From NCBI RefSeq assembly GCF_009914755.1, contig NC_060937.1: DNA of 64,000 nt; one strand, written 5' to 3'. How positions within the stretch are numbered: position 1 is the stretch's first letter; each line of letters opens with the position of its first letter. This stretch comes from the human T2T-CHM13v2.0 reference genome, Homo sapiens. The position numbers and the translations under genes were made by a program. A model generated the notes under the pieces. That model did no database searches. It saw only the letters and a program-made list of their open reading frames with translations, and had not been told where the DNA came from. Of the stretch, positions 42,540 through 45,094 are shown one piece after another.

Positions 42540-43054
42540 GTTTTTTTTTTTTTTAAACTTTTTTTCTTCTTCTTATTTTTGTACATGACTAAGTTCTTTA
42601 GTGGTGATTTCTGAGATTTTGGTGCACCCATCACCTGTAGCCTTTTCTCTGTCACCCCCCTCCCACCCTTTCCTCCAACTCCCCAAAGTCCAAAGTCCAT
42701 TGTATCATTTGTATCATTTTTTTTTTTTTTTTTGAGACGGAGTCTCCCTCTCTCCCCAGGCTGGAGTGCAGTGGCATGATCTCGGCTCACTGCAAGCTCC
42801 CCTTCCTAGGTTCACGCCATTCTCCTGCCTCAGCCTCCTGAGTAGCTGGGACTACAGCCTCCCGCCACCACACCCGGGTAATTTTATTTTTGTATTTTCA
42901 GTAGAGACGGGGTTTCACCGTGTTAGCCATGATGGTCTTGATCTCCTGACCCCGTGATCCACCCGCCTTGGCCTCCCAAAGTGCTGGGATTACAGGCGTG
43001 AGCCACTGTGCCCAGCCAATCCTTTGTATCATTTTTATGCCTTTGCTCCCTCAT
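42540..43054 (-). mobile_element. L1PB-type 3'UTR/tail, split by AluY
   Basis: aagttctttagtggtgatttctgagattttggtgcacccatcacc; ccccaaagtccattgtatcatt...atgcctttgc. Confidence 0.88.
42717..43017 (-). mobile_element. AluY inserted into L1PB 3'UTR
   Basis: caagctcc and ttcacgccattctcc diagnostics; TSD ...tcc(a/t)ttgtatcattt on both sides. Confidence 0.92.
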
Positions 43055-43374
43055 GGCACTGGGCAGGCTGAGGCAGGAGAATCAGGCAGGGAGGTTGCAG
43101 TGAGCAGAGATGGCGGCAGCACAGTCCAGCTTGGGCTCGGCATCAGAGGGAGACCGTGGAAAGAGAGGGAGAGGGAGACCGTGGAAAGAGAGGGAGAGGG
43201 AGACCGTGGGGAGAGGGAGAGGGAGAGGGAGACCGTGGGGAGAGGGAGAGGGAGACCGTGGGGAGAGGGAGAGGGAGACCGTGGGGAGAGGGAGAGGGAG
43301 AGGGACAGGGACAGGGAGAGGGAGAGGGAGAGGGACAGGGAGAGGGAGAGGGAGAGCGAGAGCGAGAGCGAGAG
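43055..43374 (-). mobile_element. SVA 5' fragment: (CCCTCT)n hexamer plus start of the Alu-like domain; no VNTR, SINE-R or poly(A)
   Basis: Minus strand: (ccctct)n, ccacggtctccctc repeats, then ctgatgccgagcccaagctggactgtgctgccgccatctctgctcactgcaacctccctgcctgattctcctgcctcagcctgcccagtgcc. Confidence 0.93.
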
Positions 43375-43415
43375 CTCGGGCTGATTTCTTATTCTCCGCC
43401 TTTGAAAAAAAAAAG

Positions 43416-43833
43416 CTGGTCTGTAGTTTTCTGTTTGGGTTATGTCCTTTCTTGATTTTGGTATTAGGGTGAGGCTGGCTTCATAGAATGATTTAGGAAG
43501 GATTCCTTCTTTCTCTATCCTGTGCATAGTGTCAAGAGGATCGCTACCAATTCTTTTTTGAATGTCTGATAGAATTCAGCTGTGAATCCATCTGGTCTTG
43601 GACTTTTTATTGTGTTGGCAGTTTTTAAATTACCATTTCAATCTTGCTGCTTGTCATTGGTCTGTTTAGAGTTTCTATTTCGTCCTAATTTAATCTAGGA
43701 GGGTCGTATATTTCCAGGAATTTATCCATCTCCTCTAGATTTTCTAGTTTATGCAGGTAAAGGTGTGCATGGAAGCCTTGAATGATCTTTTGTATTTTTG
43801 TCATATTGGTTGTAATAGCTCCTGTTTCATTTC
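43416..43833 (-). mobile_element. L1PB ORF2 fragment (start of RT domain)
   Basis: Translation [34 protein letters not shown] matches L1 ORF2p. Confidence 0.92.
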
Positions 43834-44487: not shown

Positions 44488-45094
44488 CAACACTCCCCAT
44501 TCATCGGTGGTTTCCTTTTCCTCCATTTCAGTTACCTGAGGTCAACTGTGGTCTTTTCCTTTTCCTCCATTTCAGTTACCTGAGGTCAACTGTGGTCTGA
44601 AAATATTAAATGAAAAATTCCAGAAATGAACAATTCATAAGTTTTGAATTGCACACCATTCTGAGTAGTGTGATAAGATATTGTACTGTCCCACTCTGTC
44701 CTTCCCAGGACATGAATTGTCCTTTTGTCCACAGTCTCCATGTTGTATATGTTAAACATTCATGAGTCACTAAATAGCATCTTTGGTCTGGATTATCATA
44801 TCCCTTATCATATCAACTGCCCTGGTAGATCAGTGCTTATGTTCAAGTAATCCATGTTTTACTTCATAATGGCCCCAAAGCATAAGAGTAGTATTGCTAA
44901 CATATTGCTATAGTTGTTATACTTGTTCTGTTTTTAGTTGTTGTTGTTGATCTCTTACTCTGCCTAATTCTTAAATTAAACTTTATCATGGTATGTATAG
45001 GAAAAATGTAATACAGTGTTAAGTGCTATCCATGGTTTCATGTATCTCCTGGGGGCCTTGAAATGTATGCCCTGTGGATAAGGTTGGACTATTA
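44488..45094 (+). mobile_element. MER44 (Tigger7-derived) DNA transposon
   Basis: ttcagttacctgaggtcaactgtggtctgaaaatattaaatgaaaaattccagaaat; end ccctgtggataaggttggactat; degenerate TIRs. Confidence 0.85.

What the first reader, a model, noticed from the sequence alone, without database searches (positions are those of the whole stretch)
43021..43450. 5'-only SVA replacing ~2.3 kb of an L1PB with no TSD (twin-priming-like or repair-patch geometry)
Seen: the host L1PB jumps from just past the ORF2 stop (3'UTR, ...atgcctttgctccctcatggc) to the start of the RT domain (ENYRP), so roughly 2.3 kb is missing by L1 consensus coordinates. The gap is filled by only the 5'-most ~320 nt of an SVA. The left junction has GGC microhomology (43055-43057), and there is no TSD. 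Normal TPRT keeps the 3' end and loses the 5' end; this is the opposite. On the plus strand the order is flank, antisense SVA running to its 5' end, short piece, A10, flank. That is the geometry expected from twin priming or two-template repair accompanied by a target deletion. A simpler alternative is a normal SVA insertion followed by a later deletion.
Basis: partly seen in the sequence, partly recalled or inferred. Interest (0 to 1): 0.75.

Follow-up and report, generated by a model that had tools for sequence, protein, structure and literature searches.

The report
SVA-plus-U2-locus patch inside old L1
About 2.2 kb of an old L1 element has been replaced by a 360-base patch made of the front end of an SVA retrotransposon plus 34 bases copied from the U2 snRNA gene array on chromosome 17, which looks like a scar of break repair by reverse transcription rather than a normal insertion.

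Summary
One old antisense L1 jumps from the first base after its ORF2 stop (43057) to ORF2 residue ~530 (43417). Six related L1 copies carry 2124-2572 bp between these two points. The gap holds 320 nt of antisense SVA 5' end (43055-43374), which is 96-98% identical to 39 genomic SVAs. There is no VNTR, SINE-R, SVA poly(A) or TSD, and the left junction has 2-3 nt of microhomology.

It is not SVA 3' sequence, so classical twin priming on one SVA RNA does not fit. No SVA lies next to this sequence anywhere in CHM13.

Best reading (about 0.5): a single endonuclease-independent, reverse-transcriptase-mediated repair patch using two templates, with a target deletion. This is the SVA counterpart of non-classical L1/Alu insertions and class-2 templated insertions.

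Main rival (about 0.3): a classical SVA insertion, possibly with a 5' transduction from RNU2, followed by an NHEJ deletion. Only outgroup or pangenome alleles can decide, and they were not available. The mechanism class is known, so interest is moderate.

The parts
42541..42716 (-). Host L1 3' end (poly(A) seen as T14 at 42541-42554, then 3'UTR), antisense on the + strand
   Evidence: sequence; 3'UTR piece matches other L1 3' ends at 71-100% over partial lengths; the same related copies carry it colinear with the other L1 pieces.
42717..43018 (-). Later Alu insertion into the L1 3'UTR, with a ~16-bp target-site duplication. Not part of the event.
   Evidence: sequence; local alignment of the Alu flanks scores 16; an extra 9-bp tandem copy on the left flank.
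43019..43057 (-). Rest of the host L1 3'UTR, ending at the first base after the ORF2 stop codon (left breakpoint)
   Evidence: 79-85% identity to 7 related L1 copies. (stop codon directly beyond the breakpoint in 6 of 6 copies).
43055..43374 (-). SVA 5' end only: about 95 nt of the Alu-like region (43055-~43150), then six 23-29-bp 'gagaccgtgg' units and GAGAGG hexamers, the last three units being gagagc. No VNTR, SINE-R or SVA poly(A).
   Evidence: 39 SVA hits at 96-98%, all starting at 43055. (11 real SVAs continue further into the Alu-like region). (tandem repeats). (no other SVA part in the 64-kb window). (6 units here; 2 in 9 SVAs, 3 in one and 4 in one of the 11).
43375..43408 (+). 34 nt identical to the RNU2 repeat unit on chr17, positions -129 to -162 upstream of U2 snRNA +1. 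On the window + strand it is antisense to U2, so it has the same orientation as the SVA on the - strand.
   Evidence: 9 array copies at 100%, E 3e-8. (27-nt core of the piece: 12 genome-wide hits, reversed control 0). (Rfam U2 at L002 1663-1853). (identical flanks in the 7 units fetched; distance to U2 +1 is 129).
43405..43416 (+). A10 (its first four A are shared with the RNU2 piece), then 'gc', which matches neither RNU2 (ggg) nor L1 (at)
43417..43833 (-). Host L1 ORF2 segment (antisense), from about ORF2p residue 530 back towards residue ~390. The L1 is 5'-truncated at 43833 (right breakpoint at 43417).
   Evidence: 40 L1 hits at 85-87%, query 9-425. (translation). (alignment to ORF2p 464-513 in 8uw3 and other entries).

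Best explanation
A double-strand break or gap inside a pre-existing old L1 was repaired in one event by reverse-transcriptase-made DNA, without L1 endonuclease. This would be a non-classical (endonuclease-independent) SVA insertion.

Proposed steps:
1. The left DNA end (...catggc-3') annealed through 2-3 nt (gcc) to an SVA RNA about 95 nt into its Alu-like region.
2. It was extended to the 5' end of that RNA, giving 320 nt of antisense SVA on the + strand.
3. A second template carrying RNU2 sequence -129 to -162 supplied 34 more nt, ending at its first oligo-A.
4. An A/T run and two extra bases bridge to the right DNA end.
5. About 2.2 kb of L1 between the two ends was lost.

The second piece may have been joined by template switching of one cDNA, by a second cDNA primed from the right-hand end (dual priming), or as a 5' leader already attached to the SVA RNA.

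Shown: the anatomy, the donors and the junctions. Inferred: the RNA nature of the templates, the order of steps, and that everything happened in one event.
For: 1. The SVA is 3'-truncated with its 5' end kept, and has no SVA poly(A), VNTR or SINE-R. This is the opposite of target-primed reverse transcription.
2. There is no TSD (253 of 500 shuffles as good).
3. Neither breakpoint sits at a TTTT/A site. Related copies read catagc|ttagct and gatat|tggtc there.
4. The left junction has 2-3 nt of microhomology.
5. The target lost 2124-2572 bp, as measured in 6 related L1 copies.
6. Extra nucleotides from another chromosome are present: 34/34 identity to RNU2. Its 27-nt core has only 12 hits in the genome and none in the reversed control.
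7. These are the listed hallmarks of non-classical L1 insertions. In that study 15 of 21 loci carried 4-312 bp of extra nucleotides, some from other RNAs or other chromosomes, and 31 kb was deleted at the 21 loci (PMC1920257, sections 11 and 16 read). They also match class-2 templated insertions (PMC5110952, passages read).
8. The SVA part runs through the whole hexamer tract and then changes donor. An RNA template that ends there explains this; a DNA copy would continue into that SVA's own flank. No SVA adjoins the 34-mer anywhere in CHM13.
9. The SVA piece is 96-98% identical to other SVAs while the host L1 is 85-87% identical to its nearest relatives, so the L1 was there first.
Against: 1. 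No ancestral (pre-event) allele was seen, so 'one event' is inferred only.
2. Directly right of the filler the + strand reads tggtctgtagtttt/ctg (43417-43433). This could be the surviving copy of a 14-bp TSD at a tolerable endonuclease site, as a classical SVA insertion at this point would leave.
3. Post-insertion NHEJ deletions that remove part of an SVA plus flank are documented at about the same frequency as insertion-linked ones: 12 NHEJ SRADs against 13 SIMDs (PMC3362811).
4. The RNU2 piece comes from promoter DNA between the PSE and DSE, which is not a known transcript, so an RNA template for it is unproven.
5. The A10 lies on the 'wrong' side for an SVA tail, and only sub-variants of the model (dual priming, non-templated addition) explain it.
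Confidence: 0.5

Rival explanations
1. Two steps. First, a classical endonuclease-dependent SVA insertion in the same orientation as the L1, at about L1 ORF2 residue 530. Its RNA carried a short 5' transduction from a source SVA sitting at -129 of an RNU2 unit. Later, one NHEJ deletion of roughly 3.5-5 kb removed the SVA from about 95 nt into its Alu-like region through its poly(A), the left TSD copy and 2.2 kb of L1 (an 'SVA recombination-associated deletion').
For: A possible TSD copy and endonuclease-like site (tggtctgtagtttt/c) lies immediately right of the filler. The 2-3 nt microhomology at the left junction is typical of NHEJ-type SRADs, which show 0-7 bp in the part of Table 1 shown by the search (10 of the 13 loci; PMC3362811). 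The 34-mer directly abuts the SVA 5' tip in the same orientation, as a 5' transduction would. The long-read survey states that non-canonical mobile-element insertions may be products of later structural variants (PMC12350158).
Against: No SVA lies next to any of the 11 other genomic copies of the 34-mer's 27-nt core, within the RNU2 unit, or within 8-9 kb on either side of the array. No sibling SVA shares this leader. RNU2 has T4 where the filler has T10 plus 'gc' on the SVA-sense strand, so six extra T need a separate explanation. The locus is not among the human-specific SRAD or SIMD loci in the main text of PMC3362811 (0 mentions of chr13), but that list covers only human-versus-chimpanzee differences.
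Confidence: 0.3
2. DNA-templated repair (SDSA or microhomology-mediated template switching). A broken end copied from an ectopic SVA DNA copy, stalled or switched within the GA-rich hexamer tract, copied 34 nt from RNU2 DNA, and was then end-joined.
For: Microhomology at the left junction. RNU2 is reported as an adenovirus-12-inducible chromosome fragility site and is heavily transcribed (PMC3795722, passage read). Sen et al. saw traces of SDSA at 2 of 21 non-classical loci (PMC1920257, section 11). Promoter DNA is easier to explain as a DNA donor than as an RNA donor.
Against: A DNA copy would not be expected to stop at the SVA's 5' tip. The A10 and 'gc' remain unexplained. Sen et al. argue that SDSA minimises loss, whereas 2.2 kb is lost here (PMC1920257, section 16).
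Confidence: 0.12
3. Classical twin priming of a single SVA RNA at an endonuclease nick: an inverted 5' segment plus a direct 3' segment with a poly(A) tail, accompanied by a target deletion.
For: The + strand order is antisense SVA, short piece, A10, flank. L1 insertions with an inverted tail giving a 5' poly(T) are described (PMC2837659, abstract read).
Against: The short direct piece is RNU2 sequence, not SVA 3' end. There is no TSD. There is no T-rich endonuclease site at the right breakpoint on the strand that would prime on poly(A): related copies read gatat|tggtc.
Confidence: 0.05

Closest known systems
Non-classical (endonuclease-independent) L1 and Alu insertions, NCLI/NCAI (Sen et al. 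2007, PMC1920257, sections 11 and 16 read; Morrish 2002 and Srikanta 2009 known to me only from reference lists and recall)
   Same: No TSD, 3' truncation without a poly(A) tail, target deletion, junction microhomology, breakpoints away from the TTTT/A consensus, and extra nucleotides from other RNAs or chromosomes.
   Different: The element is an SVA, which Sen et al. name as still to be studied. The extra piece comes from the promoter region of a multicopy snRNA array. The ancestral allele was not examined here, whereas those studies verified it by PCR.
Class 2 templated sequence insertions (Onozawa et al.; review PMC5110952, passages read)
   Same: A patch copied from distant genomic sites at a double-strand break, without TSD or poly(A), and with NHEJ-type junctions. 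It is proposed to be made by reverse transcription of RNA.
   Different: There are two donors in one patch, one of them a retrotransposon 5' end, and a kilobase-scale target deletion.
SVA recombination-associated deletions and SVA insertion-mediated deletions (Lee et al. 2012, PMC3362811; part 1 of the text and found passages read)
   Same: An SVA fragment abutting a deletion, joined with 0-7 bp of microhomology.
   Different: Those loci were defined against chimpanzee. This locus is not in their main-text tables (no chr13 entry). SIMD loci arise by target-primed insertion, which normally keeps the SVA 3' end; this locus keeps only the 5' end.
Twin priming and 5' poly(T) 'heads or tails' insertions (Meyer et al. 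2010, PMC2837659, abstract read)
   Same: An A/T homopolymer on the side opposite to the expected tail, and an inverted element body relative to it.
   Different: Those loci keep TSDs and endonuclease sites. Here neither is present, and a foreign 34-mer sits between the element and the homopolymer.
Non-canonical mobile-element insertions in long-read population data (PMC12350158, passages read)
   Same: That survey classes 5,523 (15.7%) of polymorphic mobile-element insertions as non-canonical: 3'-truncated, lacking poly(A), or rearranged. It leaves open whether they arise at integration or by later structural variants.
   Different: That survey gives classes, not this locus. Whether this allele is polymorphic is unknown.
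SVA 5' transduction (Damert et al. 2009; seen only as a cited title in one search, content recalled)
   Same: Unique non-SVA sequence joined to the SVA 5' tip in the same orientation.
   Different: No source SVA and no sibling copies with this leader exist in CHM13.

Membership tests
SVA retrotransposon (as a fragment) | 5' (CCCTCT)n hexamer tract followed by the SVA-specific Alu-like region | tested here: met
   96-98% identity to 39 genomic SVAs over 43055-43165. The hexamer tract and 'gagaccgtgg' units are as in 11 inspected SVAs.
SVA retrotransposon (as a fragment) | VNTR, SINE-R and terminal poly(A) flanked by TSDs | tested here: not met
   none of these is present at the locus or elsewhere in the window. 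The piece is an SVA fragment, not a complete insertion.
Endonuclease-independent (non-classical) retrotransposon insertion | No target-site duplication | tested here: met
   the best flank alignment scores 6, reached by 253 of 500 shuffles.
Endonuclease-independent (non-classical) retrotransposon insertion | 3' truncation and absence of the element's poly(A) tail | tested here: met
   the SVA stops about 95 nt into its Alu-like region at the L1 junction. The only A-run lies beyond the SVA 5' end, on the other strand.
Endonuclease-independent (non-classical) retrotransposon insertion | Breakpoints that deviate from the L1 endonuclease consensus | tested here: inconclusive
   the breakpoints fall at catagc|ttagct and gatat|tggtc in related L1 copies. 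However, a tttt/c site lies 14 bp to the right.
Endonuclease-independent (non-classical) retrotransposon insertion | Deletion of target DNA relative to a verified pre-insertion allele | not testable with these tools
   The deletion is inferred from 6 paralogous L1 copies (2124-2572 bp). No orthologous primate or pangenome sequence is held.
Endonuclease-independent (non-classical) retrotransposon insertion | Junction microhomology and/or extra nucleotides | tested here: met
   (2-3 nt at the left junction). (34 nt from RNU2, plus six more A and gc).
Twin priming | Inverted 5' segment and direct 3' segment from the same RNA, with tail and TSDs | tested here: not met
   the direct piece is RNU2 sequence, not SVA; no TSD.
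SVA 5' transduction | A source SVA adjoining the transduced sequence, or sibling copies sharing it | tested here: not met
   11 other copies of the 27-nt core in CHM13 (9 RNU2 units and 2 orphan U2 units), none next to an SVA. Other haplotypes and species were not testable.
Post-insertion SVA-associated deletion (SRAD) | An outgroup or other haplotype carries the complete SVA and the undeleted flank | not testable with these tools
   No orthologous sequences are held.

The most novel reading that the evidence does not exclude
Both ends of one germline break primed reverse transcription on different RNAs. The left end used an SVA RNA, copied to its 5' terminus. The right end used a tailed, so far undescribed promoter-upstream RNA of the U2 snRNA genes, whose 5' end would lie at -129 in the antisense direction. 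The two run-off cDNAs were then end-joined. This would be a documented non-classical SVA insertion, and would be genomic evidence that RNU2 promoter-upstream transcripts exist in the germline and are captured by L1 reverse transcriptase.
Probability: 0.12. Interest if true: 0.55.

Novelty: new member of a known kind. Interest (0 to 1): 0.35.

Why it matters
If this was a single event, the locus is a clean, sequence-resolved example of an SVA RNA used as a repair patch. That pathway has been characterised for L1 and Alu, and Sen et al. listed SVA as still open. It also shows that a patch can combine a retrotransposon 5' end with a fragment of the highly transcribed, fragile RNU2 array.

It has no evident functional consequence, since the window is a gene desert with no annotated gene. 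Its value is as a mechanistic specimen and as a marker whose presence or absence in apes could date the event.

Tried and rejected
The placement on ORF2p came instead from a PDB sequence search with stops read as X.
3. TSD of the host L1: not detectable (477 of 500 shuffles as good). That the two L1 pieces are one insertion therefore rests on shared orientation, colinearity and similar divergence.
4. Source SVA next to the RNU2 piece: none at any of the 11 other genomic copies, in a whole 6.1-kb unit, or in 8-9 kb on each side of the array.
5. A 69-72% match between the filler's GA-rich tract and the (GA)n tract of the RNU2 unit. I treat it as low-complexity similarity, because the roughly 630 nt that separate that tract from the 34-mer in RNU2 are absent from the filler.
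6. Splicing as the origin of the SVA/L1 junction: no GT/AG-type site is visible at the junction in the sequence. This was judged by eye only.
7. A crude script measure of hexamer-tract length failed and is not used. Only the unit counts from that call are used.
8. Literature: searches found no paper describing a non-classical (endonuclease-independent) SVA insertion. One search (SVA + RNU2 + retrotransposon) found 2 papers, and neither title nor abstract start suggests an SVA-RNU2 link; I did not open them. The library is limited to open-access papers and preprints.
9. SVA subfamily and the 'L1PB' label could not be assigned, because no repeat consensus library is available.

Full report
**Anatomy**

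Reading the + strand from left to right:
- An old L1 lies antisense. Its tail is T14 at 42541-42554 and its 3'UTR runs to 42716.
- The 3'UTR is interrupted by a later Alu (42717-43018) with a roughly 16-bp target-site duplication.
- The 3'UTR resumes at 43019 and stops at 43057.
- A filler occupies 43055/43058-43416.
- L1 resumes at 43417 and runs to 43833, where the element is 5'-truncated.

**The two L1 pieces**

The right piece matches 40 scored genomic L1 copies at 85-87% identity. All of them start at query position 9-12, which is window 43417-43420. Its translation, with stops read as X, aligns to human ORF2p residues 464-513 in solved structures such as 8uw3. That places the break near residue 530, at the start of the reverse-transcriptase core.

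I fetched eight of the best-matching L1 copies. Six of them hold both flanks in the same order and orientation. The distance between the two breakpoint equivalents is 2124, 2219, 2235, 2258, 2293 and 2572 bp. A seventh copy (L027) has its own internal deletion (520 bp). For the eighth (L028) no left-flank match was found.

In 6 of 6 copies the sequence just beyond the left breakpoint encodes the ORF2 C-terminus and its TAA stop. The retained 3'UTR therefore starts at the first base after the stop.

The 'L1PB' label could not be checked. A TSD for the host L1 is not detectable (477 of 500 shuffles as good).

**The SVA part**

An own-genome search with 43040-43165 found 1970 first-look candidates, of which 40 were scored. 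All 39 non-self hits cover exactly window 43055-43165 at 96-98% identity.

Eleven of these loci were inspected. They are ordinary SVAs whose Alu-like region continues beyond the point where the window switches to L1. Their hexamer tracts abut unrelated flanks and carry variant units at the tip, much like the three gagagc units here.

The SVA part is 43055-43374, 320 nt. It contains six 'gagaccgtgg' units. Among the 11 comparison SVAs, nine have two such units, one has three and one has four (tandem repeats). No VNTR, SINE-R or other SVA part exists anywhere in the 64-kb window.

At the left junction L1 and SVA share 'gc', and possibly 'ggc'. Related L1 copies have a (4 of 6) or t (2 of 6) at that first position. 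The filler's flanks show no duplication (253 of 500 shuffles as good).

**The short piece (new here)**

Window 43375-43408 is 34/34 identical to nine sites on chr17, 44,116,003-44,165,328, spaced 6145-6187 bp apart.
- Rfam finds U2 snRNA in that unit.
- In all seven units fetched, the piece lies at -129 to -162 upstream of U2 +1 with identical flanks.
- This is the RNU2 macrosatellite next to BRCA1. Its unit is 6,132 bp, with five Alus and one LTR, and that paper does not mention SVA (PMC3795722, passages read).
- A whole-genome pattern scan with the 27-nt core and up to 3 mismatches gives 12 hits: the window, the nine units, and two degenerate orphan U2 units (chr17:44,237,323 and chr3:73,152,349, 3 mismatches each). 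The reversed control gives none (for the orphans).
- None of these copies adjoins an SVA. Neither a whole unit nor the 8-9 kb on each side of the array contains SVA sequence.

On the window + strand the piece is antisense to U2, so on the - strand it is co-oriented with the SVA and the L1. It ends at its first oligo-A. RNU2 has A4 followed by ggg, whereas the window has A10 followed by gc and then L1.

**Interpretation**

The features of the locus are:
- an element that keeps its 5' end and lacks its 3' end and tail
- no TSD
- breakpoints away from TTTT/A
- junction microhomology
- a kilobase-scale target deletion
- extra nucleotides from another chromosome

This list matches the one that defines non-classical, endonuclease-independent L1 insertions. 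In that study 15 of 21 loci carried 4-312 bp of extra nucleotides, including fragments of other RNAs and of other chromosomes; 31 kb was deleted at the 21 loci; and SVA was named as still to be studied (PMC1920257, sections 11 and 16). The list also matches class-2 templated sequence insertions (PMC5110952, passages).

The SVA part runs through its entire 5' tract and then changes donor. An RNA template that ends there explains this. I therefore favour a one-step, reverse-transcriptase-mediated repair patch.

The sub-variants cannot be separated: template switching, dual priming from both ends, or an SVA RNA with an RNU2 leader. Classical twin priming on one SVA RNA is contradicted, because the direct piece is not SVA 3' sequence.

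**What speaks against it**

- No ancestral allele could be examined.
- Immediately right of the filler lies tggtctgtagtttt/ctg. This could be the surviving TSD copy of a classical SVA insertion at a tolerable endonuclease site. A later NHEJ deletion with 2-3 nt of microhomology would then give the present structure.
- Such post-insertion SVA deletions are documented: 12 NHEJ-type among 13 SRADs, against 13 insertion-mediated deletions (PMC3362811). That paper's main text has no chr13 locus, but it only covers human-chimpanzee differences.
- Long-read population data class 15.7% of polymorphic mobile-element insertions as non-canonical, and leave both origins open (PMC12350158).
- The two-step model needs a source SVA inside an RNU2 unit that CHM13 does not have, and it does not explain six extra T plus gc.
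- A DNA-templated route (SDSA or template switching) is a further rival. RNU2 is a known fragility site, and promoter DNA is not a known transcript.

**Verdict**

The mechanism class is known, so I rate this a new member of a known kind with moderate interest.

The RNU2-derived piece is the one unexpected element. It shifts the reading from twin priming to a two-donor patch. The decisive test is the orthologous locus in apes and in pangenome haplotypes, which these tools do not hold.

Noticed in passing
window 42683-43045: The Alu inside the L1 3'UTR has a ~16-bp TSD with 2 mismatches. Its left flank also carries an extra 9-bp tandem copy (ttgtatcat, 2.2 copies) just before the Alu T-run.
   Followed up: partly
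window 44511-44598: A perfect (100%) two-copy tandem duplication of a 44-bp unit within otherwise old-looking sequence, which suggests a recent duplication. By recall only, the surrounding sequence resembles a DNA-transposon end.
   Followed up: no
G000:C17:44116003-44165328 (L002-L008, L031-L033): In CHM13 the RNU2 array shows nine copies of the 34-mer, spaced 6145-6187 bp apart. The promoter-proximal flanks are identical in the seven units inspected.
   Followed up: partly
L009 (G000:C17:44235300-44239400) and L030 (G000:C3:73151300-73153400): Two degenerate orphan U2 units share the same three differences in the 27-nt core (ccacgtttt). U2 in L009 was confirmed by Rfam; L030 was read by eye. 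In the chr17 orphan, Alu elements sit directly after the 34-mer equivalent, between the PSE and DSE regions.
   Followed up: partly
window 43145-43349: The SVA 5' tract holds six 23-29-bp 'gagaccgtgg' units. Nine of 11 comparison SVAs have two, one has three and one has four, so this is a local minisatellite-like expansion of the SVA 5' end.
   Followed up: partly
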